This document shows positions 1,083 to 37,525 of a DNA stretch of 64,000 nucleotides, one piece after another. Origin of the DNA: a virus. Position 1 is the first letter of the stretch; each line of letters starts with the position of its first letter. The position numbers and the translations under genes are program-made. The stretch is taken from the IMG/VR virus record IMGVR_UViG_3300017971_000276, positions 8,928-72,927 of that record; one strand, given 5' to 3'. The notes below the pieces were generated by a model. That model had not been told where the DNA came from. It ran no database searches and saw only the letters and a list, made by a program, of their open reading frames with translations.

Positions 1083-1090
1083 GAGGCACA

Positions 1091-21297: not shown

Positions 21298-24200
21298 TTG
21301 GTAAACCCTAACCTTGCATATGGGGAGCAACCAAGCATGCCTGGTCAAGGGTTAGGACAAAACCAGGGTAGTTTGGCTGGTTTAGCTCTTGGAGCTGGTG
21401 CGATTGGTGCTGCTGGCTTTATTCCAACAAAAGGCGGTCGATTGTGGGATACCTATCTAGCAGGTATTCGTGCAGTTGAAACTGGATCCCCTGGTGGGAT
21501 TCTAAGAACCTTTCGTACTTCTGAATTTCTTTCCCCTTTAGAATCTTATTCTGCTGTCTCAGCAGCTCCTGCCGATATTGCTCGTGGTAAATATGGCAAA
21601 TATTTAAAGTCTACATTTGGAGAAGCAAGTAGCTATACTCTAGAACGAACTGGTTTAGCTTTTGGCCAAGTCAAAGATGCTTCTGGTAAAGTTATTGGCA
21701 TGGGTCTGCAAATTGAAGCTGGTACTCAAAAGGGTGCAGCTATTGCAGATTTCGCGGCAAGAATAGAAGGAATCCAACTTGGTAAATTTCAGTCTTTAAA
21801 TGATGCTATTCTTCGGAATAAATGGGAGACTTCTAAAACTCCATTGCCTTACCAAGAGTGGCTAAAGACTATAGAGCCACATCTTCGAAGACAACGTCTT
21901 ATTCTTGGATCAAAACTTCGAACCAAACTTACTATTGCAGGTAAAGATTTCCAGTTGTCTCAAAGGATGGCTGGGAATGTTGCAAAAGCAGAAACTCTTG
22001 GCAAGCTGCTCAGAGCTAAAGCAGCAACTACAGCCAGTCGTTTAAATATTCTTCTAAGGGCACCTGTTGAGCTTCCAGGAATTAAAACTCTTGCTGAGAA
22101 AGTTCCAGGTCTTCGTTCTCTAGCTGTCAAGCCAGGAACAAGCCTTCAGCTTCTAGGAAGATATACAGGCAAAGGTCTTGCTGTAGGTGCAGCATGGAAA
22201 GGGCTTGAATATGTAGATTATCTAAGAGCAGAAGGTTCTCCATGGGCTCCTGTGTTGGCAACTGCAGGAGGAGCTGGACTAGGTGCTCTTTTGGCCCGCA
22301 AACCGGGGATGAAGTTCTCAAAGGCTGGTTTGATTGCAGGTGCTGCACTTGGTTTGACTGCTGGTATAGCTCCTAGATTTGAGCATGGAATTATCCATGG
22401 TATTGCTTCTATGGCTACTGATGCTAATGTCACGAGAGCTCAATTGTCTCAGACAATGGGGTTCACAGATACGATTAGAGAACAAGAACAAATTACTCCT
22501 GGGTTTATGGATCTTAAAACAGCTCTTGGTTTCGGAGGAGTCGGAGCCTTAGCAACAGGTCTTGCTGATTACTTGTCTTTTGTCGGATCTTCTATGACTG
22601 CTCGTGTTGCAACAAAAACACCTCTCTCTCATATATTCGAATCTGCCAGAGAGAAAAGAGCAACTAGACTTGCAGATAAACTTTGGGGTTCTAAGTTTGG
22701 TACTGCAATTAAAAAAGTACCAGGACTTAGAAAGTTAACGAATATAAAAAGCCCTATGGCTCTTGGTTTCTTAGGAGGTATAACGGCATGGGGAGTTGCT
22801 GCCACAGCACTTGGAACTCTTTCTGGCAGACCTACTGCTCCTATTGCTGGCCTATTAGGAACTTCAGAAACTCCAGAAGAATTACAGGCTATCTATTCTG
22901 GCGAGAAAGAAGTAGCAATTCGCAAAGGTAGATGGTGGGAATTCGGGAGAAGTACTGCTTTTGAAGGTGGCAGGATACAATATTATAGACCTCATATGAT
23001 GGCTCGTTTAAAATCTAGAGCATATCAAAAAGGCATGTATGGGTCTGAAGAAGAAAAATGGGCACATGATCCATGGCTAAATCCTATGAAAGCTCTCTTC
23101 GGTTCTGATGAATGGAAGTATCATTATGAAGAGAAGTATCAATACGAAAGACCTGCTCCAACAACTGGTACCTATGGCGAGAGTGTACCATTCATTGGAC
23201 CACTAGTTGCTGCTACATTCGGCAAGCTATTTAAGCCTCGGAAGAAAGTCCGTGCAGAAGAGTGGGAACTTGGAGGAGGACAGTATCTACATCATCAAGA
23301 TGTTAGAGGGGAAGAAGAGCCTTCTTATATGCTCGGTGGTCTTGGACCAGGAGCCCCTGTTGCTAAAGAAGATCCTTCACAACTTCTAAACGAACTAAAT
23401 TACAGACGCAGAGAAGCTGTTGGTCTTATGGGCTTTATGGAAGGGGCTATTACCAAAGCTGCAATTGGCAGAGAAGAGTTTTTAGAAAACAAACAAACTC
23501 TTGCAGCGATGGGAGGAGAAACAGGAGCAGAATACTGGCTGTGGAAACATATGAATCTTGGTGGAGGGATGGGTACTACTGAGGCTGTGAGGCGTTTCCT
23601 CCCTCGTACAAGAAGCTATCTTGATACCTATAATCCTCTACGCAATGCAATGCCTTCTTGGGTACCAGAGGATTATTTCTTAGACTTACGTACAGGGAAT
23701 CCATTTGAGAAGATTCCTGAAGCCGAGCTTAGACTCCCTGGAGAAGGATATGCTGCTTTGCATCCTGAGGTAGAAGGTCTGTCTCCTGAAGAGTATCCCC
23801 TTGCTCATAGGGTAAAGATTCTTGGCGATATTGCTATGTATAGCAAAGAGTATGGTATTGCACTATCTCAAGCCAAACGTAATTTAAATAATCTATCTCA
23901 AGAAGAAGTTGCTATGGTTCGAGAAACTGAAAGACAAGTTAAAGAGAAGAAGAAGAGAAGAGGATTCCAAGAATATGTATTTTCTGGCGACCAGCTTGAA
24001 ACAATGGACGTAACAGTATCTGAGATTATTAGTCCTCGTAGGTTCCGGACTAAAGAACTTGGGGATGTAATGATTGATGTCCCAGGGATTGGAGCTATCA
24101 AAGATACTGCTGGTGCTTTAGAATTTGCGAAGGAGACTCTTCTTGGCCGACAGATCCAAATCCAGACTCCTTCTCTAGAGTCTAGAAGACTAACTATGAG

Positions 24201-26637
24201 TACTACTGGTCCTGTAATGAAAGCCGCACCAATGGTTGGGGGAACAGATTATGGACAGTTGTTATCTAGTGAAGGTCTTGCGGCACATAAAGAATTAGAA
24301 GATGAGTTTAAGAGAATTAGATTTACAGGCTCTGAACAGCTTGCTGGCAAATTGGGCGAATATATTACACATGGAATTGAAACTCCTCTTGAGTATTTAA
24401 CTCCTTTGTCTCCTGCTTCTAAATTAATTCGTCAACGTTCTGCTATTGAAGAATATGTTGCAACAGAAGCAATTGGTACAAGTAGTTCTTTCTGGGATAA
24501 GCCTATAGAGAATTTCCTGAAGCCTGCATTAAACATGGCCAAATATAAAGCAGGGATTACTGAAATCCCTGAAGAAGTAGAACAAAGAAGAGATATCCAA
24601 GAACATTTTGATATGCTGAAATGGGTAAAAGCTTCTCGTCTCGAAGCAAAAGCTCGTCAATATGGAGACTTGCAAGCAGCGTCAGGATTTAAAAGAACTA
24701 AAGAAAGAACTTTGTTTGGTGTTGATGTTTTTAAAAGCCCAACTAATATAATGAGAGCTCTTCCCCGTCGAGAAAGAGATTTCTTTGCTGAGTTTTCTAA
24801 TGCCAAAACAGAAGAAGACAGAGCACAAATTCTTCAATTAATTCCAGAGAATGAACGTAGGATTTATGTCTCTCAATGGATGAGGCAACAAGAAAGAACT
24901 GCATATGCTAAAAGAACAGCAAAACTTTCTAACGAACAAGACGATAGAGTTATTGCAACAACGGCTTTAATGCGTAAGGGTGAAGGTTTCTCTTACACTA
25001 ACAAACAAGAAGAACAATGGATGAACGAGACTCAAGGACAGGTTGAGTTCGATGAATGGCTAAGAGAACAGAAAGCAGAAGAGTATTTTCAAACTCATTC
25101 CCTTCCTGGTGCTGATTGGTTAGGCTGGTGCCTACCTGCAAACCAAGAAGTTTTAATATCAAACTATACTTTTTCGCATGCTTGTGATATAAAACCAGGA
25201 GACAAAGTGGTTACTTTACAAGGAGAGAACATTGTGAAAAAAGTATTTAAGAGAGAAATTAAAGAAGCAATTAGGACTCTAACAGTTTGTCATAATAGTG
25301 TTTATTGTATGAGTGCAACTAATAATCATTTAGTTCTGGGTATTGAAACAAAACCATGTAAATATAATTTGACTCCTAATTCGGTCTGTACTCATGAAAG
25401 TAATTCTTGGAAATGTCAGTTCTGTACAACAAAACATTATCAGTCTTATTCTGCTCGTTGGATGCCAATAGGAGAAGTTACAACAGACATCTATTTGCCA
25501 ATTCCATTATTAAAACATGCAGATAAGGATCCTACTATAGATATTGGATCTCTAGATTGCTTCCCAAAAAACACAGTAGTTTCTGATGATTGTCTTAGAC
25601 CTAAAAGCGGAAGGATTAAACCGGTTAATCGTTTCATTGCATTGAATGAATCTGTCTGCTGGTTGATTGGTTACTATCTTGCAGAAGGTAATGTGTGGGC
25701 AGTTGGAGATAGGATGCGTGGGGTTCAGTTTACTGCTAATATTAATGAAGTCTCAATCTTAGAATTAGCACAAAAAATTATCAAAGAGCACTTTGGTCTT
25801 AATAGTGAAATTCGTTATAAGAAGAATCCAAAATCAAAGAGTGCTTATCTGCAAGTTGCAAGTAGTATATTCGGATGGCTTATTGACCATTGGGTGGGAA
25901 GATTTTGTGATAAAAAATTTGCACCATCTTGGCTTCAAGATATAACTTATAATAGCCAAGTAGCATTACTAGATGGACTTAATACAGGAGACGCTTCAAA
26001 AGATCATCGTAACAGACTTGCTTTAGCAAATAGAGAATTATGTACTATGGCCAAAAGACTCTATGAAGCTCAAGGGATTCCTGCCAGTTTACATGGTCCT
26101 AAGAAGATAGAGAACAGGAAAGACCAATATGTTGTAGAGCCTTTAAGAAAGTCTTTATCTGCATTTGTTGGTAGTAACTTTATTGCTTATCGTATTAAAG
26201 ATATAGAAGAGACAGAATACCAAGGAACTGTATTCGATTTTGAAGTAGAACAAAATCATATGTATTGTTCTCCAATTGGAATATACCATAATAGCCCATC
26301 AGTAGACCTTGAAGATGTTAAGTTGCAATATGTAGAGATGGCTGGTCTTGATCACCATGATTTTGATCTTTGGGGACAACGCAAACGTGCTCTTGCCAGA
26401 AAGCCATATATCAATCCAACTCTTATTGGAGAGATGGAAGAAGCAAAAGAACAATATCAAGATTCTTGGAAGGTAGCAGCAAACTCTGATGTATTGTCTC
26501 GTATGTTCTCTGAACATAAAGCTGAAGTAATAATGTCAAAACTAGATGCAAACTTACCAGAAGACAGATACAATGTTCAAGTGCAAGATGGAAGAAGAGA
26601 TCTTGTTGAGCAAGCTTACAAACAACTTGGAGCATAA
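21298..26637 (+). CDS. Tape-measure-like protein 1, with degenerate SNase-like domain and an intein
   Basis: TTG start after GGAGGA. 1779 aa with several Gly/Ala hydrophobic segments; follows the chaperone genes. Confidence 0.7.
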   Translation: MVNPNLAYGEQPSMPGQGLGQNQGSLAGLALGAGAIGAAGFIPTKGGRLWDTYLAGIRAVETGSPGGILRTFRTSEFLSPLESYSAVSAAPADIARGKYGKYLKSTFGEASSYTLERTGLAFGQVKDASGKVIGMGLQIEAGTQKGAAIADFAARIEGIQLGKFQSLNDAILRNKWETSKTPLPYQEWLKTIEPHLRRQRLILGSKLRTKLTIAGKDFQLSQRMAGNVAKAETLGKLLRAKAATTASRLNILLRAPVELPGIKTLAEKVPGLRSLAVKPGTSLQLLGRYTGKGLAVGAAWKGLEYVDYLRAEGSPWAPVLATAGGAGLGALLARKPGMKFSKAGLIAGAALGLTAGIAPRFEHGIIHGIASMATDANVTRAQLSQTMGFTDTIREQEQITPGFMDLKTALGFGGVGALATGLADYLSFVGSSMTARVATKTPLSHIFESAREKRATRLADKLWGSKFGTAIKKVPGLRKLTNIKSPMALGFLGGITAWGVAATALGTLSGRPTAPIAGLLGTSETPEELQAIYSGEKEVAIRKGRWWEFGRSTAFEGGRIQYYRPHMMARLKSRAYQKGMYGSEEEKWAHDPWLNPMKALFGSDEWKYHYEEKYQYERPAPTTGTYGESVPFIGPLVAATFGKLFKPRKKVRAEEWELGGGQYLHHQDVRGEEEPSYMLGGLGPGAPVAKEDPSQLLNELNYRRREAVGLMGFMEGAITKAAIGREEFLENKQTLAAMGGETGAEYWLWKHMNLGGGMGTTEAVRRFLPRTRSYLDTYNPLRNAMPSWVPEDYFLDLRTGNPFEKIPEAELRLPGEGYAALHPEVEGLSPEEYPLAHRVKILGDIAMYSKEYGIALSQAKRNLNNLSQEEVAMVRETERQVKEKKKRRGFQEYVFSGDQLETMDVTVSEIISPRRFRTKELGDVMIDVPGIGAIKDTAGALEFAKETLLGRQIQIQTPSLESRRLTMSTTGPVMKAAPMVGGTDYGQLLSSEGLAAHKELEDEFKRIRFTGSEQLAGKLGEYITHGIETPLEYLTPLSPASKLIRQRSAIEEYVATEAIGTSSSFWDKPIENFLKPALNMAKYKAGITEIPEEVEQRRDIQEHFDMLKWVKASRLEAKARQYGDLQAASGFKRTKERTLFGVDVFKSPTNIMRALPRRERDFFAEFSNAKTEEDRAQILQLIPENERRIYVSQWMRQQERTAYAKRTAKLSNEQDDRVIATTALMRKGEGFSYTNKQEEQWMNETQGQVEFDEWLREQKAEEYFQTHSLPGADWLGWCLPANQEVLISNYTFSHACDIKPGDKVVTLQGENIVKKVFKREIKEAIRTLTVCHNSVYCMSATNNHLVLGIETKPCKYNLTPNSVCTHESNSWKCQFCTTKHYQSYSARWMPIGEVTTDIYLPIPLLKHADKDPTIDIGSLDCFPKNTVVSDDCLRPKSGRIKPVNRFIALNESVCWLIGYYLAEGNVWAVGDRMRGVQFTANINEVSILELAQKIIKEHFGLNSEIRYKKNPKSKSAYLQVASSIFGWLIDHWVGRFCDKKFAPSWLQDITYNSQVALLDGLNTGDASKDHRNRLALANRELCTMAKRLYEAQGIPASLHGPKKIENRKDQYVVEPLRKSLSAFVGSNFIAYRIKDIEETEYQGTVFDFEVEQNHMYCSPIGIYHNSPSVDLEDVKLQYVEMAGLDHHDFDLWGQRKRALARKPYINPTLIGEMEEAKEQYQDSWKVAANSDVLSRMFSEHKAEVIMSKLDANLPEDRYNVQVQDGRRDLVEQAYKQLGA
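25129..26292 (+). mobile_element. Intein with LAGLIDADG homing endonuclease (388 aa)
   Basis: N-terminal CLPANQEV; block B SATNNHLVL; LAGLIDADG-like WLIGYYLAEG and ALLDGLNTGDA; block F VFDFEVEQNHMY; terminal HN followed by Ser+1. Confidence 0.93.
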
Positions 26638-26641: not shown

Positions 26642-29600
26642 ATGCCATTTAATAATGACGAACGATCTCCTCTATGGGGTCTTGCTGCTGGTGGAGCTCT
26701 TGCTGGTGGGGTCGGATATGCTTTTCTTAAGAACAGGAGTTCTTTAGCTCGCGCTTGGAAGATGGGAAGTCAAGATGTTACTGGTCCTCCTTCTGGTCTT
26801 ATTGACGAGATAGCTGGATTTCAAACTGGCAAGATTCCAGTAGCACAAGGAGCAATATTTGATGAAGCAATGGAAGCAACTGCTGCTTCTTTTGAACGTC
26901 GTGTAGGATTGACTTCAGCAAAGCAAGACATTCAAGCAGCTGCATATGAAGCTATTCTTGGTGGAGGGCAAGCCTCTCATGAGGAAGCTATTTCGGCAAT
27001 AAAAAACATCTATGCACAAGAGAATGCGACAGGAGCATATAGAGCAGCTGTTGATGTTATTGGCCAACAAGGTGGAGACATTGCTACTTTTGAATCCAGA
27101 TTTGGTGCATTTGCAACAACTACAGATAGAGCTTCTATGTTGGCCGGAACAGAAGTCTCTTTAGGTGGTTATGGAGAGATGCCAATTAGTTCTACTCTTC
27201 TTCGTAATCTTCCAGAAGAAGCACAGCAGCGTGCCTTGGCACACCAAAAACATATTGGGCAAGTTGCTGCTGGTAAATTTGATGTCTCTTGGGATTATAA
27301 AGTTGTTAAAGATATAATTGGAGGCAAAGAGATAGAAACACCTATGGCAATTGTCTCAGCGGGGAAGCAACGTCTTGGAGAAATTCCTTTAGCAAGCACA
27401 GGTCTTACATATAGTGGCAAAGGTCTCGCCTCTAGACATTTTACTCGTAGAGGTTATATGGCAGGTGGAACTCAACTGAGTTTTGCAGAATTATATGAAA
27501 GAAATATAACTGATGCTATCAGTAAAGCTCATACACATGCAGAATTAAAACAGAATGTACTTAATTCTCATAGAATTCTTATTGAACAAATGAACGATAG
27601 AGATTCTTCTCGACGTGCAGCTGCTGTTTTTGGGAGTCCTTTTATGGCTCCTGGTGGTCTTGCTCAGAAGAGACTTATGACATATGAAGCTGTCCCGTAT
27701 GAACAACTTGATCCAGAAGACATAGAAAACCTTCTTGGCTCTAAAACAGGCCTTTATCCTTACACCTCACCTGGAGCTGCTGGCAAAGGAACCTTAACCA
27801 CAAGAAATGTTTCTGAAGAATTGTTTGGCCCTCTTGGCCGATTGGTTTCTGCTGAACAACGACCAACTCAATTTATAAGACCAGAATGGGGGGTTACAGC
27901 TGAAGCGAAGGGAGAAGCTAGAGGTTTCGCTGGTTTGTTCGGTCAGAAGTATCAACGATTTGATCGCAAAATCCAAGGAGCTAGATATCGTAGTTATTTA
28001 TATGGAGGGAAAGGAGCAAGTGCTCTCGATCCCGGAGCTTATAGTGCTCCTCAGCTGACTACCTTTTATGCGAAACCTGCAACAAAAGGATATGGTCTTG
28101 GCTATCAATCAGAAGCTCTAAATAAAATACTTGCTGCAGAAGAGGGGGTTATCTCTGGCAATGTAACAAACATGATGGAATATGAACGTGTTGTTCAGAA
28201 GAAAATTGCTCTTGATGAAGGCCTAAGAGTCAATAAAGATTTATTAAGGCAATTCCAAGATCGTCGCTTAGGAGCTGGCCCAATACAATTAGAGGGAGCT
28301 TTGCCTTCTGGATTTATGGGAATTGAGAGAGGAACTGGCAGAGAGGTTGCTGGAGAAATTATTGGAGCTGAGCTCACAGGCAAAAATGAAGCTAATATTT
28401 TCTTGAGGGAGAGAAAACAACTTTCTGAAAATCAAATGTGGAAGTTTTTCTCTGAAGAAAATAAGTTTATGGCTGCAGCAGCAAGTGAAGGAAGGATGAC
28501 AGAAGTTCTTGAAGCAGCTGGTGCTGAAAGAGCAATCGCTGGCCAACAGATAGAGGCTGTGTTCTCTGGCAAACTTGTGGCTAGAAATAAGATGGCTCTT
28601 ATTACCCAACAGACAGAAGCAGCATCTATGTTCTTAGGTCAAAAGCTTGATATGGGTGCGATACAAATGACTCCTCAGATTCAAGCCTTTTTAAATGATC
28701 CTTCAGCTGCTCTAGACGTTGCAGGGAAGATGAGACATGGTGGTGCCAACGCGGATATCCAAATTCAAAAGAGCCTAATGGGTCTAACTAAAGGCTGGGG
28801 CTTCTCTAATAGAGAGCTTGGCCTTACCTTCGGTCTTGCTCCTGAAGAAGCTCTTGAGTCTGGAGTCCTTACAGCAAGACAGAGAATGGCTGTAAGAGAA
28901 TCTGCTGGAGTTATTGGCCTTGGTAAAGGTCGTCTTGGCGACATTGCAACAGAGGGCGGAGCTGGTCGTTGGGGTTCTTTTGAACAAACTGGTTTTAGAG
29001 CTTTGTCTATGAAAGGTGAAGTTGGCCAAAGATATGCTTATGAATTATCAAGGCGTATTTCCGGCAAAGGAGAACTAGATCCAGCTAACAAAATGATTGA
29101 GTCTCTCCTTGGTGAAGAAGGTATGATCGCTGGATTACGAAGAGGACAAGTTCCTAACATTACTGATATTGGTGCAAAAGAATTAGTTCAACAAGAAGGT
29201 CGATATGTTGGTCTCGGACAAAAGATTAAAGCATTTGGTGGCTCTGACGTAATGTATGTTCCAGGTCTTAGTGAAGCTCCTGGTATCATGGAAGATATTA
29301 TTACTCCTCGTGGGGAACGTGTCCGCTCCCCGTTGGTAAGAGAAATGACTTCATTCCAGTCTTTGTTAAGAAGGGGCAAAGCTTCTTCTGAAGAGATTGA
29401 ACTTGCAGCAGAATCTTTAAGGAAAATTGCAGTTCAAACATCAGAGGCTCAAGCTGCGGCAAGAGGTAAAATTATTGGTTCTAAAGTTCTAACAGGCATG
29501 CGTAGGACTTTTGAAGAGGATGCAGATGCTTTTCGTATCTCTGGCCAAATGGGCGAAGAGATGTTTGAAGATCTTATGGGCCGAGCAGCTACAGAGGAGC

Positions 29601-31045
29601 AGGCTAATTTTCTGCGCGAGCAAAGAGATCTTTTCCGGAAAGGCAAGACTATGACTGGTGGGATGTGGCGGCATCCAACTACTGGCCCTGAATCTTTTCA
29701 GTTTGTAAAGTTTAAGAAAGATGCTCGTATTGCAAATGGCATGGTTGCTGCACCAACACAATTTGGCAAGCTTCAATTCCAAAGTGGAGAAAATCTTCCT
29801 GTCGATGTATCTGCTATGGTTGGTTTTAAAGGTGACTTCGATAAAGATACATTCGTTCTGTCTGCTATCTCTAATAGACGAACGAGCGACATGGCTCGTC
29901 GCTCAATAGATAACAAAATGAGAGCAGATTATTCTAAATATTTGTTTAACCATTATTCAATGAAAGATGCTATTGATGGCCGAGTTGGAAAGAAAGCAAT
30001 TCTAGACATGACTTCTGATCAAGCTCTTCAAGAAGGTTACAGAAGATTATCCACTGCTAAAACAGCGACAGGACGTGTAAATATTGCTTTGCAAAAACTT
30101 AAAATTGGTGTTCAGAGTTCGGCTCCTGAACAATATCGTCCTTTGGCTGAAATGTTTTGGCATCTTGAAGAAGCTGCTATTAGTGGCAAGCATGGTGTTC
30201 TTAGCTCTGATTTATATCAAGCTATTGCTCAGTCTGTAGAAGAAGGTGGGCCTTCAGGAATCTCTCGAATGGAAAATGTAATGAGAGAGTTAATGGGAGA
30301 GGAAAGAACTATTTCTGGGACAATTACAGATGCTTTTGGCAACGTTCGGCAACATTCTTTAGAGTATAATCCTCGTCAATGGGCTGAGATGGCAATTGCT
30401 TCACATGATGCTGTAAGCCAAGATGTAGATATTGCCATGAGATCCGTTGCAGCTGCGAGGGGAAGGAACCTTGACCAAAGAACTTTAAGTGATCTTGTAG
30501 AAATGTATCATGCCCGTAGAACTGGGTCGGTTGATTTTGCACAAGCGGTCATGGAAGCTAATGCTGCGAATGCAGATCAGTTTACAACTAAAGGGACTCG
30601 TCTTCTTAGAAAAGCACAAATTAAAACAAGGAGTGTGTTTAGTGCAGTTAAGAGAGCAGGAAAACCATTGTTAGCAGGAGCAGGGATTGCAGCAGGAGTT
30701 ATGCTTATGGCTCCCAGTACATCTGGAACACTTAGATCCCCTGAAGGCTCAAGCGCTGGCAGAGGAATGACTCCTGATGATTATGGTCCTCCTGGTGGCC
30801 AAGGCATGCTACCTCCACCTCCTGGAATGAATGCTTCTCCAAGGGCTTACGATCTGGGTGGCGGCAAAATGACTTCTCATGCTAATATAAGAATGCGGAT
30901 TAATGATCTTGACTCCTCGTCTAGAGATTTTATGAGAAGCGCTAGGCAGCTTAGCAATGGAGGTCAAGTTAATATTAGAACCCGAGACGACAGGTCTATT
31001 CTTGACCCCCGAATGCTTGCCAATAAGATCCATGAGAGGCTGTAA
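26642..31045 (+). CDS. Tape-measure-like protein 2 containing a putative single-chain two-barrel (beta/beta'-like) RNA polymerase
   Basis: Ordered motifs EEGVIS, KFFSEENK, IEAVFSG, GGAGRWGSFE, RGKIIGS, RHPTT, GFKGDFDKD, TAKTATGRV, AISGKHG; hydrophobic segments at both ends. Confidence 0.7.
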   Translation: MPFNNDERSPLWGLAAGGALAGGVGYAFLKNRSSLARAWKMGSQDVTGPPSGLIDEIAGFQTGKIPVAQGAIFDEAMEATAASFERRVGLTSAKQDIQAAAYEAILGGGQASHEEAISAIKNIYAQENATGAYRAAVDVIGQQGGDIATFESRFGAFATTTDRASMLAGTEVSLGGYGEMPISSTLLRNLPEEAQQRALAHQKHIGQVAAGKFDVSWDYKVVKDIIGGKEIETPMAIVSAGKQRLGEIPLASTGLTYSGKGLASRHFTRRGYMAGGTQLSFAELYERNITDAISKAHTHAELKQNVLNSHRILIEQMNDRDSSRRAAAVFGSPFMAPGGLAQKRLMTYEAVPYEQLDPEDIENLLGSKTGLYPYTSPGAAGKGTLTTRNVSEELFGPLGRLVSAEQRPTQFIRPEWGVTAEAKGEARGFAGLFGQKYQRFDRKIQGARYRSYLYGGKGASALDPGAYSAPQLTTFYAKPATKGYGLGYQSEALNKILAAEEGVISGNVTNMMEYERVVQKKIALDEGLRVNKDLLRQFQDRRLGAGPIQLEGALPSGFMGIERGTGREVAGEIIGAELTGKNEANIFLRERKQLSENQMWKFFSEENKFMAAAASEGRMTEVLEAAGAERAIAGQQIEAVFSGKLVARNKMALITQQTEAASMFLGQKLDMGAIQMTPQIQAFLNDPSAALDVAGKMRHGGANADIQIQKSLMGLTKGWGFSNRELGLTFGLAPEEALESGVLTARQRMAVRESAGVIGLGKGRLGDIATEGGAGRWGSFEQTGFRALSMKGEVGQRYAYELSRRISGKGELDPANKMIESLLGEEGMIAGLRRGQVPNITDIGAKELVQQEGRYVGLGQKIKAFGGSDVMYVPGLSEAPGIMEDIITPRGERVRSPLVREMTSFQSLLRRGKASSEEIELAAESLRKIAVQTSEAQAAARGKIIGSKVLTGMRRTFEEDADAFRISGQMGEEMFEDLMGRAATEEQANFLREQRDLFRKGKTMTGGMWRHPTTGPESFQFVKFKKDARIANGMVAAPTQFGKLQFQSGENLPVDVSAMVGFKGDFDKDTFVLSAISNRRTSDMARRSIDNKMRADYSKYLFNHYSMKDAIDGRVGKKAILDMTSDQALQEGYRRLSTAKTATGRVNIALQKLKIGVQSSAPEQYRPLAEMFWHLEEAAISGKHGVLSSDLYQAIAQSVEEGGPSGISRMENVMRELMGEERTISGTITDAFGNVRQHSLEYNPRQWAEMAIASHDAVSQDVDIAMRSVAAARGRNLDQRTLSDLVEMYHARRTGSVDFAQAVMEANAANADQFTTKGTRLLRKAQIKTRSVFSAVKRAGKPLLAGAGIAAGVMLMAPSTSGTLRSPEGSSAGRGMTPDDYGPPGGQGMLPPPPGMNASPRAYDLGGGKMTSHANIRMRINDLDSSSRDFMRSARQLSNGGQVNIRTRDDRSILDPRMLANKIHERL

Positions 31046-31048: not shown

Positions 31049-34000
31049 ATGACTGATTCTGATACACTAAAACAATTTAGCGACTATAGAATAGGGACTA
31101 GAGATCGTGAAGATTATGAAGAAGGATTTGGTTTGTATGATGATTGGGCACTAGGAGTCTCAGATCCTAATTTGCCTGACGGGACAAACAGCAAAGAGCT
31201 ATTAGAAGAAGCTATTAATTCTGTCACTCCACAAGATGTATTTACTACTTCTAGTTTTTCTACTTTTCCAGATAGCTTTTTGATTGTTAATGATATTTAT
31301 TTTACTGATGTTCCTACAGCCGCTATATCTATTGATTCTCAAACAGATGTTTTTGTTGGCGAGACTCTAAGGTCTCCTGCTCCAGTAATTGATTCTGAAG
31401 GTCGTCAAGATTTTGTCTTAAGGCTCAGTCTTCCCTTCCCTCCTGGGGAAGCACAATCTATTAAGCTTAAAAGACTAGTCTCTCAAATCTCAAAACATCC
31501 ATTCTTGTTTATTTATAATAACAATATTAAACAAAAACTAGATGTTCCTGAAAATGAATCTACTGTTTTTGTGCTAGAGGCAGCAACATTACGTTCTACT
31601 CAAGAGACTGTTGGCCTTATCGTGTTAGATATGCAGTTGCATTATTTTAACTACAAGCCATTTAGTAAGCATTATTATTTTAATACTGCTCTTCCTGGAT
31701 ATACAGAAGAACCAGATCAAGTTTCTAGGCATGAAGATATAGAAATTGATCTTACTGAATTTGGCGGATATGAAGCTTCTGAGCATACAATATCTAAGCT
31801 TGCTGACCGAACAAGAAATAATATTCGACAAGGTATTAAAAACTTAACCAGAACTAAAAGGGAAAATGTTCCCGTTAATATGCCATCAGAGTCTGACGCA
31901 TGGATGTATTTTGCTAATCATCTTGAGACTCAAAGTGAAGCTATTACAGGAATCCCTTCTGACTATATTGGTTTTACTCTTAGAGAGTATATGCATTTTA
32001 ATCCACCTGATTCTAAATATGCAGACGGAGAGAGCACATTAGCTGACTTAATGAACTCTCGCTATGAAGAGGTAAGTCCTCTTTATCGTGCAGACAAATG
32101 GCAAGAAGCTCTTGCAAAGAAACATGATGAAGAAACTAAATATAGTGTAGAAGGGACAACTGCACAAGAGAGACGTTACCAAGAAGAGATAGACCTTTCT
32201 CTCGAAGGGGATATTACTGCTCCTGTTAAATTTACTAACCCTCGTGGCCAAAAATTAACTATTCAACTTCTTGATGAGAATGGGAATGTGCCAACGAATG
32301 CCAGATATGAACTTACAAAGTTTGCAGACAGAAGGAAACTGACAAAAGATGAAGCAGTCTTCCTCTCCCCTGATTTGATCCGCAAACTTGCTCTTGTCGC
32401 GAAACATTTCTCAGGAAGAACAATTGAAATTATTTCAACACAAAGAGATCCAGGATGGGTGAAGAAACGAATTCCTCGACCATCTAATTGGAAGCCTAGT
32501 TATCATATCCAAGGCAAAGCGATAGACTTTCGGGTTAGAGGCATTCCTAACCAATCTCTGTATGAATATATAAAAACATTACCGAATACTGGCGCTGGGT
32601 TTTATCCCAATTCTGTCTTCTGTCATATGGATGCACGAAACAGTAGTTTTTTCTGGGTTGATTTATCTGGCAAAGGCGAAAACTCGAACTATGCACTAAA
32701 GACAAATAATGTAAGAGAACTTAATAAATACCTAAATGATCATTATCGTCTCGCAGGAGATTCTGTTTCCTCAGAAATTGATTCAGATATTGAAGAGATT
32801 GAGTCTAATTTAGGCACAGACAAAGACAGGGAAAAACAGGCTAAAGATATTGCACAACAGAAAGGCAATGTAGCTGATTTAATAGAGAGACAGAAAGAGC
32901 TAAACAAGCACAAAACAGAAGCTGACTATCAAAAAGCACAACATCGTAAAGAACAAAAGACAGAGAAGAATAAAAATGACAGAATGGCATGGATTGAAAG
33001 TATTGAAAAACAACACGGAGTCCATTATTATTACGATGATCCAAAAGTAAGAAATGTTTTTTATAGAGATATGGGTCTAAATATTTCTAGTGATCCTACT
33101 GTCCAAAGATCAGGAGCTGCATTAAAAAACATGGTGTGTTCTGCAATCTCTGTATCCTTTGGGCATCGAATTGCTCCAATCCCTCTTCTTAGTCAGTCTT
33201 TCTATACTTATCAATTTTTGGGATCCGGTAACAAAAGTGGGCAGATTGTGCTAACTTTTGCAGGTGAAGAAGGCAAGACGTCTGCCCAATTGGTTAAGCG
33301 GTTAATTTGGAAAGCTAGAGATAACGCCAGAGACTTTACATCTGTGATTAAGAGTGTTGGATCAATTGGCTTAGAGCATACTGCTTTTGGAACAGGCGAA
33401 CAGAATACAATCATGGCTCTTGCTAATATTGATAATATTGTTGTAACAGATATCAAAGAGTCTAATTCCCCAGAAGGCGCTGACAAGCATCAATTGGTTA
33501 TTGAATTTATTGCTCAAGAATTTGCAGAAGAGAAACTTGAAGAAAGGTTTACTACTACTTTAGATACGAAGAAGAGAATAATTAGAGCAATATTACAACA
33601 TGTAAAATCAAGACAACCAAAAAATGCCTTGTCTGGGGCAGTTCAACATAGAGCAGGTCGTTCGACAGATCCATTAGACCTAAATGCAATCTTTGTTTCT
33701 CACGATCTTGTAAGTGCCAATACCTCTTCTGAAGGAAAACCTTACCGGCTTATTGGTGACACTCCTTTATGGGTTGCTAGATTGCTTGTAGAGGCAGCAA
33801 ACATTTGCAAGGAAGCTAATGATAAGATGCCTCCTGTTAATTGGCAGGTTTCAAAAGGGGCTAGTGCAACATGGCAAGAAGTATATAAAGCTTGGGGCGC
33901 TGGCAGTATCATGCGTGGCAAAACAGCTAATATCGATTCTTCTGAACGGAACGCTACTGGTATTCAAGCAGCTATAGATCAACCAGATATTGACCGTCAA

Positions 34001-37000: not shown

Positions 37001-37525
37001 GTGTGTTATCTCAATGATGCTTCAATCAACATGACTGGTCCAATTGAAGTAGAATCTGTAACACATATCTTCAACAGAGACAATGGTTTCGTTTCTATTA
37101 TTACTCCAGATCTTTGTTTAGAAGTAAATGATTATTATACTTCTAGTGTCTTTGATGTAACTGCTTCTGCTATGAACTTTACTTTTGCAGACTGGGTTAC
37201 TGGTGCGAATATATTAAAAGGCGTTGGTTTTCTTGGGTTGCTTGCTGGTGTAAAATTTATGACATGGACACAAGATGGCGCTCCTGTTGTGGCAACGCCA
37301 CTTACATTAGGCGGAAAGCCCTTTATAAGCAATTCTCTTGGTCCAAATAGAGTTTCATTGTTCTTCTCTCTAATGGGCAAGTGGAATCAATATTGGGATG
37401 ATCTTGGTGATGCATGGAGAAAATTTGATGTGTCTGAAGCTTTCTTCGAAAACAGAGTTAATCTAGTTAAGGGATTCTATGAAGCCCTTGGTTCTGGTGC
37501 ACAAGGAGGATTAGAGGAGGCGTAA
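31049..37525 (+). CDS. Giant baseplate hub / tail-associated lysin with peptidase M15 (YcbK/MepK-like) domain
   Basis: 2158 aa. SYHIQGKAIDF...GAGFYPNSVFCHMDAR is an H-x6-D...H Zn motif. Hub-like C-terminal motifs: VQIRLGY...VFLGQIVEV..IEIACQGYG and YKGELCVIGD..LKPYD. Confidence 0.8.
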   Translation: MTDSDTLKQFSDYRIGTRDREDYEEGFGLYDDWALGVSDPNLPDGTNSKELLEEAINSVTPQDVFTTSSFSTFPDSFLIVNDIYFTDVPTAAISIDSQTDVFVGETLRSPAPVIDSEGRQDFVLRLSLPFPPGEAQSIKLKRLVSQISKHPFLFIYNNNIKQKLDVPENESTVFVLEAATLRSTQETVGLIVLDMQLHYFNYKPFSKHYYFNTALPGYTEEPDQVSRHEDIEIDLTEFGGYEASEHTISKLADRTRNNIRQGIKNLTRTKRENVPVNMPSESDAWMYFANHLETQSEAITGIPSDYIGFTLREYMHFNPPDSKYADGESTLADLMNSRYEEVSPLYRADKWQEALAKKHDEETKYSVEGTTAQERRYQEEIDLSLEGDITAPVKFTNPRGQKLTIQLLDENGNVPTNARYELTKFADRRKLTKDEAVFLSPDLIRKLALVAKHFSGRTIEIISTQRDPGWVKKRIPRPSNWKPSYHIQGKAIDFRVRGIPNQSLYEYIKTLPNTGAGFYPNSVFCHMDARNSSFFWVDLSGKGENSNYALKTNNVRELNKYLNDHYRLAGDSVSSEIDSDIEEIESNLGTDKDREKQAKDIAQQKGNVADLIERQKELNKHKTEADYQKAQHRKEQKTEKNKNDRMAWIESIEKQHGVHYYYDDPKVRNVFYRDMGLNISSDPTVQRSGAALKNMVCSAISVSFGHRIAPIPLLSQSFYTYQFLGSGNKSGQIVLTFAGEEGKTSAQLVKRLIWKARDNARDFTSVIKSVGSIGLEHTAFGTGEQNTIMALANIDNIVVTDIKESNSPEGADKHQLVIEFIAQEFAEEKLEERFTTTLDTKKRIIRAILQHVKSRQPKNALSGAVQHRAGRSTDPLDLNAIFVSHDLVSANTSSEGKPYRLIGDTPLWVARLLVEAANICKEANDKMPPVNWQVSKGASATWQEVYKAWGAGSIMRGKTANIDSSERNATGIQAAIDQPDIDRQNNTAREYSKDKDSASLVADSVQASRTREQNGIYDKNGGPKTNKFHKQVFDEWLSKMNLIVNEFKTHLNDGEIVDKYFSGVLDNLTAVIAGDISSCYLDIGLPNVPGAPVPLPPEFFLYDDSHEDPLVSNMTDDSNMERLLKRHVETEMASIKHYIDESFLGGSYLSKNLPRILEQRASDHERFEGERNFSTYYNYFTHGAKSWEPIYTRRDEQDPAIKGVRQWLDSVASHYGSADDKEQRINYLKNIIELSPYIASGRHWETPLTEQDNSALVRSLYKDAEDVLAFGPNPIYGHVDATMRGQLEDPANERRAQAIENKKAVEAMKKPIPPQYKAGLFLTGKHGEGPRESMELPGRTVLADGAVTFGQTEAEKKDSKPSFFDELVQMGKDFADADSSGAVGGFVLNALSGGSSLGGSLSGLYQGSKIVEKAAGAIDAYALDAGAAKYDHAFSKMAQEDEIKQIAQTASRTALGRRRNDLSMRRAYPTFKIYFIEDDSGETELIDDGILRAFDDFYSYSAIQEIKVTRSRHIAADMAVIRMTNIGGLLLRKRFGENDKDLTKYGINAEKQGIFADTEREHPFEKMILQDGIKVQIRLGYAANPEHLETVFLGQIVEVGLAERGKIIEIACQGYGAELESVELGPLENGKYFLSSQQVLSGAIIQDSIANFGRQDRFNRDNPAAMRHSWTGGRATGFFSGLSPSNIHEEWSDRGLETIFNRYQFLNYQQDDNIYAPPPETYSTSWTKFWNNACIYRPLKQTPWQIFKEHELRHPGYISLAVPYGHSPRMTMFFGSKMQHYWSKPPSSLEIELARGAKNDIVRMRKQGLELFEKGMVKELVKFVGKSPKLGAAIFNDVMTIGTRYDTGFAIGELFGRYVPFRNYHYFDSYHHILKNNIRSSVDGTFNEVEIYYTEDENDIIDPDRDDLEENVASVARGYEGLLAVKLDENIPESAIRSFRGEYPSCVTVDMARRYAQGIFGRTLRDAYKGELCVIGDEKLKPYDVCYLNDASINMTGPIEVESVTHIFNRDNGFVSIITPDLCLEVNDYYTSSVFDVTASAMNFTFADWVTGANILKGVGFLGLLAGVKFMTWTQDGAPVVATPLTLGGKPFISNSLGPNRVSLFFSLMGKWNQYWDDLGDAWRKFDVSEAFFENRVNLVKGFYEALGSGAQGGLEEA

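What the first reader, a model, noticed from the sequence alone, without database searches (positions are those of the whole stretch)
26642..31045. Candidate single-chain virion RNA polymerase inside a tape-measure-like protein, with a variant DFDKD active site
Seen in sequence: motifs collinear with cellular RNAP beta then beta' in one chain. Beta-like: AAEEGVIS (about 28133-28156; cf. NFEDSI), KFFSEENK (28442-28465; cf. the two Lys of GDKMAGRHGNKG), AGQQIEAVFSGKLVAR (cf. DGTPVDIVLNPLGVPSR), GGAGRWGSFE (28955-28984; cf. GGQRFGEME). Beta'-like: RGKIIGS...FRISGQMGEEMF (cf. LGKRVDYS...CGLPKKMALELF), RHPTTGPESFQ (from 29669; cf. RAPTLHRLGIQ), GFKGDFDKD (DFDKD at 29834-29848; cf. NADFDGD), LSTAKTATGRV (cf. 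bridge helix DTALKTANSGYL), EEAAISGKHG (trigger-loop position). All three catalytic Asp are kept, but Gly is replaced by Lys. Hydrophobic segments flank the core. Established: Thermus phage P23-45 has a virion RNAP fused to its tape measure protein, and crAss-like phi14:2 virion RNAP uses a non-canonical DFDID motif. Inference: this is a minimal RNAP packaged in a contractile tail and injected for early transcription, possibly a distinct lineage.
Basis: partly seen in the sequence, partly recalled or inferred. Interest (0 to 1): 0.95.

Follow-up and report, generated by a model that had tools for sequence, protein, structure and literature searches.

The report
Hidden RNA polymerase in phage tail module
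A 1,467-residue protein encoded among the tail genes of a large contractile-tailed phage is predicted to fold like both catalytic subunits of cellular RNA polymerase joined in one chain, so it is probably an unannotated polymerase that the phage carries into the cell to start its own transcription.

Summary
Every motif lies at the stated coordinates.

The ORF at 26642-31045 belongs to a metagenome-only family. A profile search found 174 clusters, almost all 1,430-1,640 aa. No Pfam, PHROG or PDB sequence match was found.

AlphaFold2 models are confident: pLDDT 84.7 for residues 225-1335 and 76.4 for residues 860-1335. In unbiased structure searches they match only RNA polymerases at the top. 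The first half matches beta/Rpb2-type subunits, the second half beta'/Rpb1-type subunits, and QDE-1 matches across both halves.

In 156 full-length members, D1065, D1067, D1069 and R1010 are kept in 156/156 and K601 in 154/156. The Lys in DFDKD is not conserved. Gly fills that position in only 26/156.

The gene always sits between a homologue of Bacillus phage 0305phi8-36 gp145 and a baseplate-hub homologue. Its C-terminal module matches the C-terminus of 0305phi8-36 gp146, a virion protein. Acinetobacter phage ME3 gp036 is a distant cultured member.

Virion packaging and early transcription are inferred, not shown. This scan also noted the same stretch from an overlapping window of the same genome.

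The parts
26642..31045 (+). Whole gene, 1,467 aa (P0001): candidate single-chain two-barrel RNA polymerase
   Evidence: ORF listing and translation. 51 homologues at 36-64% identity and 174 clusters by profile search.
26672..26731 (+). N-terminal hydrophobic Gly/Ala-rich segment (about residues 11-30), probably membrane-inserting
   Evidence: Kyte-Doolittle peak at residue 11. The motif ERSPLWG..A..A..GG.GY is conserved in the close family. ME3 gp036 has an equivalent peak at residue 26.
27314..28996 (+). Beta/Rpb2-like module (about residues 225-785), including the second catalytic barrel region
   Evidence: AF2 model 1. VIA matches on model residues 1/164..550: PhiKZ nvRNAP chain C at Z 12.4 (281 aligned) and AR9 at 11.7; beta/Rpb2-type subunits of Pol I, Pol III, Pol IV, plastid, vaccinia, ASFV and a bacterium at Z 8.9-10.4, with Pol II and archaeal second subunits at Z ~11 in the Foldseek-limited second look.
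28442..28465 (+). KFFSEENK: two conserved Lys (K601, K608) of the beta-like barrel
   Evidence: K601 is kept in 154/156 and K608 in 150/156 plus 4 Arg. K601 is invariant in the 32-sequence diverse alignment. The motif lies on strands at model residues 376-390.
28997..29470 (+). Connector between the two barrels (about residues 786-943; clamp-connector position), with invariant P874
   Evidence: Position in the model. P874 is kept in 156/156. Largest-subunit matches begin at model residue ~600.
29471..29908 (+). Beta'-like double-psi beta-barrel (residues 944-1089)
   Evidence: Generic DPBB domains (CDC48-N at Z 8.4-8.6, designed DPBB 7dww at Z 8.0) and RNAP largest subunits (Z 8.8-11.2) align on model-2 residues 85-230.
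29669..29701 (+). RHPTTGPESFQ motif inside the beta'-like barrel
   Evidence: R1010 is kept in 156/156, P1012 in 154 and S1018 in 150.
29834..29848 (+). DFDKD: candidate metal-binding Asp triad (D1065, D1067, D1069)
   Evidence: Each Asp is kept in 156/156. The fourth position is variable, with Gly in 26/156.
30014..30121 (+). Long helix at the bridge-helix position (about residues 1125-1160; contains LSTAKTATGRV)
   Evidence: Helix at model-2 residues 266-301. It lies within the range aligned to largest subunits (model-2 residues 79..398/450). The basic residue at 1154 is K or R in 152/156.
30125..30244 (+). Helix, flexible tip and helix at the trigger-loop position (about residues 1162-1201; EEAAISGKHG)
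   Evidence: Helices at model-2 residues 303-325 and 330-342, with pLDDT below 50 at 324-326. E1176 is kept in 153, K1183 in 154 and H1184 in 139 of 156.
30656..30724 (+). C-terminal hydrophobic segment (about residues 1339-1361)
   Evidence: Strongest Kyte-Doolittle peak of the protein. G1346 is kept in 146/156. It aligns with a hydrophobic stretch of 0305phi8-36 gp146.
30878..31042 (+). Conserved C-terminal module (residues 1413-1467, ...NIRTRDDRSILDP...), shared with the positional counterpart gp146 of phage 0305phi8-36
   Evidence: hhalign of A5 against gp146 residues 2476-2523: E 1.2e-4, probability 55%. A 156-sequence HMM hits gp146 residues 2364-2521 at 28.7 bits. D1449 is kept in 148/156 and R1451 in 136/156.
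21298..26637 (+). Upstream partner gene (1,779 aa). It is a homologue of 0305phi8-36 gp145 (virion protein) and carries a 388-aa intein at nt 25129-26292.
   Evidence: BLASTP against gp145 gives 3e-24 plus four further collinear segments at E 4e-18 to 1e-5. A homologue lies upstream in 11/11 related loci. The intein segment is absent from the G001 orthologue, and there are weak intein/LAGLIDADG Pfam hits.
31049..37525 (+). Downstream partner gene (2,158 aa): baseplate-hub homologue with a Peptidase_M15 domain
   Evidence: Pfam PF05951 at 2.1e-10 and endolysin PHROGs. BLASTP against 0305phi8-36 gp147 gives 4e-16. A homologue lies downstream in 10/10 loci that reach that far.

Best explanation
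The gene encodes a single-chain 'two-barrel' RNA polymerase. Residues ~225-785 correspond to the second-largest (beta) subunit of cellular RNAP and supply conserved Lys residues (K601, K608). Residues ~825-1325 correspond to the largest (beta') subunit. They supply the double-psi barrel with the metal-binding Asp triad (D1065, D1067, D1069), followed by a bridge-helix-like helix and a trigger-loop-like hairpin. This much rests on predicted structure and conservation. The rest is inferred. The enzyme is made late with the tail proteins and built into the virion, through its terminal hydrophobic segments and a C-terminal module shared with a known virion protein at the same gene position in phage 0305phi8-36. 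On sheath contraction it is expelled with or ahead of the DNA. Its two hydrophobic segments anchor it at the inner membrane, and it transcribes the first phage genes independently of host RNAP, possibly helping to draw the genome in. The non-glycine fourth position of DxDxD, as in crAss-like virion RNAPs, may go with an inactive stored conformation.
For: Fold. The AF2 model of residues 225-1335 has pLDDT 84.7 and pTM 0.82. The model of residues 860-1335 has pLDDT 76.4. In Foldseek against PDB, all 50 listed rows for both models are RNAP entries: beta/beta' chains for model 1 and beta'-type chains for model 2. In VIA-align against 48,161 representative chains without Foldseek prefiltering, ranks 1-18 for model 1 are all RNAPs. 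Beta-type chains align on model residues 1..550, beta'-type on 600..1100, and QDE-1 reaches Z 11.0 with 458 residues aligned across 51..1083. For model 2, ranks 1-10 are largest subunits (Z 8.8-11.2), followed by generic DPBB domains on residues 944-1089. Conservation. The Asp triad and R1010 are kept in 156/156, K601 in 154/156 and K608 in 150/156. The only invariant columns among 32 sequences at 16-41% identity are G560, K601, P874, R1010, D1065, D1067, D1069 and E1176. Virion context. The gene lies between tail sheath/tube/chaperone genes and baseplate genes. The triad of gp145-like, RNAP and hub-like genes is conserved in 11/11 and 10/10 related loci. 0305phi8-36 gp145 and gp146 carry the record note 'identified as virion protein by mass spectrometry'. 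The C-terminal module resembles that of gp146. Hydrophobic segments lie at both ends, and the same layout is seen in ME3 gp036. Precedent. P23-45 gp96 is a tape-measure-fused vRNAP (PMC10770324; abstract and sections 6, 11-13 read). phi14:2 gp66 is a virion-packaged RNAP with DFDID (10.1101/2020.03.07.982082; passages read). No other RNAP was detected in the complete 197.7-kb relative G001. PF00940, PF00623, PF00562 and PF05183 gave no match, and there is no paralogue of this family.
Against: There is no direct evidence that the protein is in virions or is active. The identity rests on predicted, not solved, structure. Foldseek E-values are modest (best 1.4e-4 and 4.2e-4) with low TM-scores (0.1-0.2). 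VIA Z of 11-12 is above, but not far above, the 7-8 the tool says unmatched models typically reach. No sequence or profile method links the family to any characterised RNAP. I had no model coordinates, so I could not check that the Lys residues and the Asp triad face one another. A compact ~1,100-residue core would have to unfold or be stored elsewhere to pass through a tail tube. The positional counterpart in 0305phi8-36 (gp146) has no DxDxD, so the gene position alone does not imply a polymerase. No recurrent promoter-like word was found in intergenic regions of G001.
Confidence: 0.6

Rival explanations
1. It is an active two-barrel RNA polymerase but is not packaged. It would be a non-virion enzyme that merely sits in the late structural operon and transcribes middle or late genes after being made in the cell.
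For: The RNAP fold and the catalytic conservation apply equally. No virion proteomics exist for this phage. No second RNAP was found in the complete relative G001, so one enzyme might serve later stages.
Against: A gene expressed with tail genes is made too late to transcribe middle genes in the same cycle. Terminal hydrophobic segments and a C-terminal module shared with the virion protein gp146 of 0305phi8-36 are not expected of a soluble cytoplasmic RNAP. The position between the gp145-like and hub genes is strictly conserved.
Confidence: 0.12
2. It is a two-barrel polymerase with a different activity. Candidates are an RNA-dependent RNA polymerase like QDE-1/RDR2, a primer-synthesising enzyme for replication, or a DNA polymerase like archaeal PolD.
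For: The single-chain matches that span both halves with the highest Z are QDE-1 (Z 11.0) and maize RDR2 (Z 10.7), both RNA-dependent enzymes. QDE-1 has both DdRP and RdRP activities (abstract of PMC9508822, seen in the listing). Template choice cannot be read from a fold.
Against: PF05183 (RdRP) does not match this family's genomes, although it does find the YonO-like gene of 0305phi8-36. No PolD chain appears among the 50 rows of either wide search. Each half separately ranks DNA-dependent multisubunit RNAPs first. A dsDNA phage has no obvious need for an RdRP.
Confidence: 0.1
3. It is a structural tail-lumen or tape-measure-type protein that descends from an RNAP and no longer catalyses anything.
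For: Its gene position matches that of 0305phi8-36 gp146, annotated 'hypothetical tape measure protein'. It shares that protein's C-terminal module. The fourth position of DxDxD is not Gly in 130/156 members.
Against: The three Asp, R1010, K601, K608, E1176 and K1183 are near-perfectly kept across sequences that are otherwise about 16-20% identical. That pattern signals selection on an active site, not on a scaffold. crAss-like gp66 is active with Ile at the fourth position. The protein is compact rather than a long helical ruler.
Confidence: 0.05

Closest known systems
Thermus phage P23-45 gp96, tape-measure-fused virion RNAP (PDB 8H2M/8H2N; PMC10770324)
   Same: It is a single-chain two-barrel RNAP encoded in the tail module, in a polypeptide that also carries membrane segments, and it has a DxDxD site. 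It aligns structurally: Z 7.3 with 196 residues on the beta' half and Z 5.6-5.7 with 331-332 residues on the whole model.
   Different: gp96 has 5,002 aa. Its RNAP sits at the N-terminus, followed by about 3,800 aa of tape measure with a metallopeptidase, and the phage has a long non-contractile tail. Here the protein has 1,467 aa, the RNAP is central and fills about 75% of the chain, and the phage has a tail sheath. There is no profile similarity (hhalign probability 0.2%). gp96 has the canonical DFDGD.
crAss-like phage phi14:2 gp66 virion RNAP (PDB 6VR4)
   Same: It is a virion-delivered single-chain two-barrel RNAP. The fourth position of DxDxD is not Gly (DFDID), which the authors tie to an inactive stored conformation. 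It aligns over 519 residues at Z 5.3.
   Different: gp66 has 2,180 aa, about 1,600 of them in extra domains including a cleft-blocking domain, and the phage is podovirus-like. crAss enzymes keep Ile or Val at position 4, whereas this family allows A, R, K, G, D and N. No PHROG family matches this protein.
Multisubunit RNAPs, especially the split RNAPs of jumbo phages PhiKZ and AR9 (PDB 7OGP, 7S00)
   Same: They are the best structural matches for each half taken separately. PhiKZ nvRNAP chain C gives Z 12.4 and AR9 gives Z 11.7 on the beta-like half. PhiKZ chain A and bacterial beta' top the Foldseek list for the beta' half.
   Different: Those enzymes are built from 4-5 separate polypeptides, whereas here everything is one chain in beta-then-beta' order. 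Pfam models for Rpb1 domain 2 and Rpb2 domain 6 do not match this family's genomes.
YonO / RdRP-type single-chain RNAPs (Pfam PF05183), including the 1,246-aa ORF of Bacillus phage 0305phi8-36
   Same: They are single-chain two-barrel enzymes in large myoviruses distantly related to this one by tail sheath.
   Different: PF05183 finds the 0305phi8-36 gene (E 1.1e-20) but nothing in G001, G002, G003 or ME3. hhalign of this family against that ORF gives probability 0.1%. That gene lies outside the tail module.
Bacillus phage 0305phi8-36 gp146 ('hypothetical tape measure protein', virion protein by mass spectrometry)
   Same: It occupies the same slot between the gp145 homologue and the baseplate hub. 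It has a similar C-terminal hydrophobic stretch and terminal '...N.n.sDDRS...' module.
   Different: gp146 has 2,537 aa, no DxDxD and no similarity to the RNAP core.
Acinetobacter phage vB_AbaM_ME3 gp036 (1,603 aa, 'hypothetical protein')
   Same: It occupies the same slot. BFVD models of A0A172Q021 match my model at E 5.5e-7 and 1.1e-4; I equate that entry with gp036 by organism and length (801+802 residues). It carries KFFSVGSK, REPAQGTMSSQ and DHDQD motifs in the same order and has hydrophobic ends. The family HMM hits residues 517-656 at 28.9 bits.
   Different: It is very divergent: hhalign against A5 gives only probability 3% and tblastn finds nothing. ME3 also has a second RNAP-like model, A0A172Q0S6 of 798 aa (E 2.6e-5), that I did not locate.

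Membership tests
Two-barrel (double-psi beta-barrel) RNA polymerase superfamily | A beta'-type double-psi beta-barrel | tested here: met
   Generic DPBB domains (Z 8.0-8.6, rmsd ~2 A, 82-89 residues) and RNAP largest subunits (Z 8.8-11.2) align on residues 944-1089. This rests on a predicted model.
Two-barrel (double-psi beta-barrel) RNA polymerase superfamily | A second, beta-type barrel in the same enzyme | tested here: met
   Residues ~225-775 align with second-largest subunits through their C-terminal catalytic region (Z 9.4-12.4, 281-413 residues). The barrel was not folded and searched on its own, so this rests on the whole-module match.
Two-barrel (double-psi beta-barrel) RNA polymerase superfamily | DxDxD metal-binding triad in the beta'-type barrel (as stated in PMC7824862, passage read) | tested here: met
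   D1065, D1067 and D1069 are each kept in 156/156. They lie inside the barrel between strands at model-2 residues 192-196 and 211-216.
Two-barrel (double-psi beta-barrel) RNA polymerase superfamily | Two conserved basic residues supplied by the other barrel | tested here: met
   K601 is kept in 154/156 and K608 in 150/156 plus 4 Arg. Their closeness in space to the Asp triad was not measured, because no coordinates were available.
Two-barrel (double-psi beta-barrel) RNA polymerase superfamily | Bridge helix and trigger loop after the beta'-type barrel | tested here: met
   Long helices at residues 1125-1160 and 1162-1184, a low-confidence tip at 1183-1185 and a helix at 1189-1201. They lie within the ranges aligned to largest subunits. 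E1176, K1183 and H1184 are conserved.
Two-barrel (double-psi beta-barrel) RNA polymerase superfamily | Template-dependent NTP polymerisation | not testable with these tools
   This needs a biochemical assay.
Phage virion RNA polymerase (functional class) | Protein present in the virion | not testable with these tools
   Support is indirect only: tail-module position, conserved synteny, and a C-terminal module similar to that of the mass-spectrometry-verified virion protein gp146 of 0305phi8-36.
Phage virion RNA polymerase (functional class) | Transcribes early genes independently of host RNAP | not testable with these tools
   No expression data were examined. A search for recurrent promoter-like words in G001 found none, which is uninformative.
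Tape-measure-fused vRNAP of P23-45 type | RNAP domain fused to a long tape-measure body in one polypeptide | tested here: not met
   Only ~224 residues precede and ~130 follow the modelled core. The ORF ends at 31045 and the next gene is a separate baseplate-hub homologue.
Tape-measure-fused vRNAP of P23-45 type | Sequence homology to gp96 | tested here: not met
   hhalign of A1 against gp96 residues 1-1200 gives probability 0.2%. Structural similarity is moderate, Z 5.6-7.3.
YonO / RdRP family (Pfam PF05183) | Match to the PF05183 profile | tested here: not met
   P0001 has no Pfam hit and 0/32 diverse members match. A genome search with PF05183 gave 0 matches in G001, G002, G003 and ME3, while 0305phi8-36 and the B. 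subtilis control did match.
Cellular-type multisubunit RNAP beta/beta' (Pfam PF00562, PF00623) | Match to Rpb2 domain 6 or Rpb1 domain 2 profiles | tested here: not met
   There was no match in 5 related records for each family, while all 14 control genomes matched.

The most novel reading that the evidence does not exclude
In this clade of large contractile-tailed phages, the protein in the tape-measure slot of the tail module has had its body replaced by a complete beta-plus-beta' RNA polymerase. The enzyme would travel in the tail and be fired into the cell envelope on contraction. Hydrophobic helices at both ends would hold it at the inner membrane, where it would transcribe, and thereby pull in, the entering genome. 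Together with ME3 gp036, the family would be an old, independent lineage of two-barrel RNAPs. Each of its halves resembles the cellular and jumbo-phage beta and beta' subunits more than the YonO, QDE-1, crAss or P23-45 enzymes, so it would be a natural fused-subunit relative of multisubunit RNAPs.
Probability: 0.3. Interest if true: 0.85.

Novelty: new variant of a known kind. Interest (0 to 1): 0.72.

Why it matters
Phage-borne RNA polymerases let a virus start transcription before, or without, taking over the host enzyme. Only a few kinds are known: N4-type, the multisubunit jumbo-phage type, crAss-type and the P23-45 tape-measure fusion.

This family would add a compact single-chain version carried in the tail module of contractile-tailed phages. 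It is widespread in metagenomes (174 clusters at 50% identity). It is invisible to Pfam and PHROGs, and one BFVD relative is labelled 'minor tail protein'.

Genome surveys that report 'no RNA polymerase, therefore dependent on host transcription' could therefore be wrong for such phages.

A distant member sits in a cultured phage, Acinetobacter phage ME3 gp036, so the idea can be tested directly with ordinary virion proteomics and rifampicin experiments. The free fourth position of DxDxD also extends the crAss observation that Gly is dispensable there.

Tried and rejected
Sequence routes that gave nothing:
- Pfam and PHROGs on P0001.
- phmmer and profile hmmsearch against PDB sequences.
- tblastn of P0001, P0101 and P0154 against 50,697 GenBank phage records.
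- Pfam and PHROGs on 32 diverse members. 0/32 matched an RNAP family; 1/32 carries an RNase_T-type exonuclease.
- hhalign against P23-45 gp96 residues 1-1200, 0305phi8-36 gp145 and the 0305phi8-36 YonO-like ORF.
- BLASTP of P0001 against gp146.
- ESM Atlas feature search. The best score was 0.76, against unnamed clusters. That is below the tool's own lead threshold, and no structure search was possible.

Search for a second RNAP in relatives. PF00940, PF00623, PF00562 and PF05183 gave no match in G001, G002 or G003. For PF00940 the control genomes did not match either, so that result is uninformative. The family HMM found no paralogue in G001. A DxDxD scan of G001 ORFs of 300 aa or more listed 10 ORFs. 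None other than the target looked like an RNAP by eye, and one with DLDID near its N-terminus looked to me like a DNA polymerase III alpha PHP motif (recalled, not tested).

Promoter search. No 11-mer occurs 7 or more times in G001. No 8-10-mer recurs in more than 4 of 87 oriented intergenic stretches, and the top words were tRNA T-loop sequence. I did not try degenerate or structure-based motif discovery.

Ideas rejected:
- That the Lys of DFDKD defines a lineage-specific active site.
- That P0001 is a fusion to a long tape measure.
- That 0305phi8-36 gp146 hides the same RNAP; it has no DxDxD.

Not done:
- No measurement of the Lys-Asp distance, because model coordinates are not exposed.
- No fold of residues 1-224 or 1336-1467.
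- No fold of the beta-like barrel alone.
- ME3's second RNAP-like protein was not located.

My literature searches found no paper describing an RNAP in this slot. Passages read in PMC7824862, PMC12390700 and PMC5795418 do not mention one for ME3.

Rows dropped:
- A1, A2 and A3 used 38 of the 51 proteins. The 13 left out were P0006, P0008, P0011, P0012, P0016, P0023, P0026, P0029, P0032, P0033, P0038, P0041 and P0051.
- The 156-sequence counts used proteins of 1,300 aa or more. That is 156 of the 192 family proteins held, so 36 shorter fragments were left out.
- Only the best 150 of the 174 hits were returned.
- L001 and L005 gave identical numbers and are probably the same phage.

Full report
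**Context**

The window is one strand-uniform structural module of a large tailed phage. PHROG matches identify a portal (4278-6491), a major head protein (10115-11377), a tail sheath (15328-17214, E 7.5e-67), tube-like paralogues (17983-19817) and a baseplate wedge (38794-40053). Three giant ORFs lie between tube and baseplate: 21298-26637 (1,779 aa), 26642-31045 (1,467 aa, the finding) and 31049-37525 (2,158 aa). The window's own contig has only 72,927 bases, so the rest of this genome is not available.

**Observation**

DFDKD (residues 1065-1069) is the only DxDxD in the protein. The two strongest hydrophobic peaks lie at residues ~11-30 and ~1339-1361, on either side of the core. A DxDxD alone means little, because ten long ORFs of a related complete genome carry one.

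**Family**

P0001 has no match in Pfam, PHROGs, PDB sequences or 50,697 GenBank phage records. A word-indexed search found 51 proteins at 36-64% identity, nearly all 1,440-1,510 aa and all unnamed or 'hypothetical'. A profile of the core, built from 12 sequences and searched against 1.84 billion cluster representatives, found 174 proteins at E <= 1e-3 and 155 at E <= 1e-10. Almost all full-length hits have 1,430-1,640 aa.

I aligned the 156 held members of 1,300 aa or more; 36 shorter fragments were left out. Their median identity to the query is 21%. Conservation in that alignment:

| Residue | Kept in |
|---|---|
| D1065, D1067, D1069 | 156/156 each |
| R1010 | 156/156 |
| P874 | 156/156 |
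| P1012 | 154/156 |
| K601 | 154/156 |
| K608 | 150/156, plus 4 Arg |
| E1176 | 153/156 |
| K1183 | 154/156 |
| H1184 | 139/156 |

In a separate alignment of 32 diverse members (16-41% identity), the only invariant columns are G560, K601, P874, R1010, the three Asp and E1176. This is the pattern of an active site. None of the 32 matches an RNAP family in Pfam or PHROGs.

**Fold**

AlphaFold2 with a 38-sequence alignment gave a confident model of residues 225-1335: pLDDT 84.7, pTM 0.82. A second model covers residues 860-1335 at pLDDT 76.4.

- Foldseek against the PDB listed only RNA polymerase entries in the top 50 for both models. Model 1 matched beta and beta' chains of bacterial, plastid, archaeal and poxvirus enzymes (best E 1.4e-4, 42 hits at E <= 1e-3). 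Model 2 matched beta'-type chains (best E 4.2e-4).
- VIA-align does not depend on Foldseek and compared 48,161 representative chains. For model 1 it ranked only RNAPs in places 1-18:
  - Second-largest subunits align on model residues 1..550: PhiKZ nvRNAP chain C at Z 12.4 and AR9 at Z 11.7; beta/Rpb2-type subunits of Pol I, Pol III, Pol IV, plastid, vaccinia, ASFV and a bacterium at Z 8.9-10.4. Pol II and archaeal second subunits score Z ~11 in the Foldseek-limited second look.
  - Largest subunits align on 600..1100 (Z 7.2-9.0).
  - The single-chain enzymes QDE-1 (Z 11.0, 458 residues, 51..1083) and maize RDR2 (Z 10.7) align across both halves.
  - P74-26 gp62 (Z 6.5), P23-45 gp96 (Z 5.6-5.7) and phi14:2 gp66 (Z 5.3, 519 residues) follow.
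- For model 2, ranks 1-10 are largest subunits (Z 8.8-11.2). Next come unrelated double-psi beta-barrel domains (CDC48-N, designed DPBBs, molybdoenzyme barrels; Z 6-8.6, rmsd about 2 A) on residues 944-1089. These isolate the barrel that holds RHP...S.Q and DxDxD.
- After the barrel, the model has a 36-residue helix (1125-1160) and a helix-tip-helix (1162-1201) with a low-confidence tip at the conserved GKH. These are the positions of the bridge helix and trigger loop.

The tool cautions that Z of 7-8 is common for unmatched models. The argument rests on the exclusivity of RNAPs at the top, the two halves matching the two different subunits in order, and the conserved residues falling on the catalytic elements.

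**The DFDKD variant**

The fourth position is A in 48, R in 28, K in 27, G in 26, D in 8 and N in 6 of 156 members. The canonical DFDGD occurs in only 3. So Lys is not a lineage signature, and the family simply does not need Gly. According to passages of the phi14:2 preprint, Gly occupied this position in all RNAPs studied before gp66, and crAss-like enzymes have Ile or Val there with a stored, catalytically incompatible loop conformation. This family therefore widens that exception.

**Genomic and virion context**

A tblastn search with the tail sheath finds the jumbo myoviruses Acinetobacter phage ME3 and Bacillus phage 0305phi8-36 as distant relatives.

0305phi8-36 has the same layout: sheath, tube and tube paralogue, two 'tail chaperonin' genes, and then three giants.
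- gp145 has 1,930 aa.
- gp146 has 2,537 aa and is annotated 'hypothetical tape measure protein'.
- gp147 is annotated as baseplate hub or endolysin.

The window's first giant is homologous to gp145 (3e-24, with four further collinear segments at E 4e-18 to 1e-5) and the third to gp147 (4e-16). The RNAP gene has no BLASTP similarity to gp146, and gp146 has no DxDxD. The two proteins do share the C-terminal end: hhalign gives E 1.2e-4 and probability 55% over 48 residues. The 156-sequence HMM scores 28.7 bits over gp146 residues 2364-2521, including the hydrophobic stretch.

The triad is conserved in related IMG/VR loci. The gp145-like gene lies directly upstream in 11/11 loci. The hub-like gene lies directly downstream in 10/10 loci that extend that far. 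L001 and L005 look identical.

I read this as a conserved slot for a virion protein whose ends are kept while its body is exchangeable. That reading is an inference.

**A cultured member**

BFVD's best matches to model 1 are unnamed or 'minor tail protein' proteins of metagenomic phages (E about 1e-11). Next comes ME3 protein A0A172Q021 (E 5.5e-7 and 1.1e-4 for its two halves). ME3 gp036 has 1,603 aa, is annotated 'hypothetical protein', and occupies the same slot between a gp145 homologue and the hub. It carries KFFSVGSK at 632, REPAQGTMSSQ at 1174 and DHDQD at 1217, with hydrophobic peaks at 26 and 1480. The family HMM hits residues 517-656 at 28.9 bits. hhalign against the 32-sequence alignment alone is not significant (probability 3%). 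I equate A0A172Q021 with gp036 by organism and length (801+802 residues), not by an accession table.

**Other polymerases**

In the complete 197,730-bp relative G001 and other records I found no second polymerase:
- no multisubunit-type RNAP;
- no RdRP/YonO-type RNAP;
- no paralogue of this family;
- the T7-type (PF00940) search found nothing, but none of its control genomes matched either, so that result is uninformative.

PF05183 does find a 1,246-aa ORF elsewhere in 0305phi8-36. By accession numbering (ABS83700 is ORF142), the YonO-like ABS83659 cited in PMC7824862 would be ORF101. I did not check that it is this same ORF. That ORF shows no profile similarity to the present family.

**Mechanism**

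Supported by predicted structure and conservation, not by experiment: a beta-then-beta' two-barrel polymerase fold with an intact, strongly conserved catalytic constellation.

Inferred:
- late synthesis with the tail genes;
- incorporation into the virion through the conserved termini;
- ejection on contraction;
- membrane anchoring by the two hydrophobic segments;
- host-independent transcription of the first genes, perhaps coupled to genome entry, as proposed for P23-45 (section 13 of PMC10770324).

Against the model: there is no proteomic or activity evidence; the bulky core would have to unfold or be stored outside the tube lumen; and I found no recurrent promoter word.

**Comparison and novelty**

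The protein works like the known phage single-chain virion RNAPs, but it fails the membership tests for each known family:
- It is not fused to a long tape measure, and it has no homology to gp96.
- It has no PF05183 match.
- It has no PHROG shared with crAss or other phages.
- It has no Rpb1 or Rpb2 Pfam matches.

I therefore rate it a new variant of a known kind: a new sequence family, with a new architecture (hydrophobic end, RNAP, hydrophobic end, conserved tail-slot module), in contractile-tailed phages.

One caveat applies. PMC10770324 refers to 23 previously described two-barrel RNAP families and to a survey of viral genomes in supplementary files that I could not open, so the family may already be catalogued there. 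My four literature searches and the passages I read found no description of it.

**Verdict**

- That it is a two-barrel polymerase: about 0.9.
- That it is a virion-delivered early RNAP as described: about 0.6.
- Interest: 0.72.

Noticed in passing
window 25129-26292 (residues 1278-1665 of the ORF at 21298-26637): A 388-aa intein-like insertion (Cys at the start, His-Asn then Ser at the end) interrupts the gp145-like giant tail protein between ...ADWLGW and PSVDLED.... The orthologue in the complete relative G001 lacks exactly this segment. Pfam gives weak Intein_splicing and LAGLIDADG_3 hits. Orthologues in other loci range from 1,379 to 2,618 aa, which suggests variable insertions.
   Followed up: partly
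window 31049-37525: The third giant (2,158 aa) combines a Peptidase_M15 (DUF882) domain at residues 421-529 with endolysin-type PHROG regions and a C-terminal part homologous to the 0305phi8-36 baseplate hub gp147. It is probably a cell-wall-digesting hub.
   Followed up: partly
window 17983-18903 and 18903-19817: Two adjacent ~305-aa ORFs both match phrog_9206, labelled 'major head protein'. In 0305phi8-36 the corresponding record notes call them tail tube and tube paralogue, so the PHROG label looks misleading here.
   Followed up: no
protein alignment A5 (one of 32 distant family members; member not identified): One distant member of the RNAP family also carries an RNase_T-type 3'-5' exonuclease domain (Pfam PF00929, E 1.1e-13; phrog_192 'DNA polymerase exonuclease subunit', E 2.1e-27).
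   Followed up: no
Acinetobacter phage ME3 (BFVD entry A0A172Q0S6, 798 aa; gene not located): A second ME3 protein also resembles the RNAP model (Foldseek E 2.6e-5, 815 columns, TM 0.42 on the target). ME3 may therefore encode two two-barrel RNAPs, as PMC10770324 says many phages do.
   Followed up: no
BFVD entries A0A075BUT7_2 (Microcystis phage MaMV-DC) and A0A7J4_2 (Microcystis phage Ma-LMM01): Large proteins of these cultured cyanophages give weaker matches to the RNAP model: E 4.5e-4, and E 4.8e-3 with probability 0.38. They may be further hidden polymerases or chance matches.
   Followed up: no
G001 (L012-L021), whole record: In the complete relative, all structural genes lie on one strand (about 62.8-132.8 kb) and nearly everything else lies on the other strand with many intergenic gaps. 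The terminal repeat is only 127 bases, which looks like an assembly overlap of a circular or permuted genome rather than a long physical repeat.
   Followed up: partly
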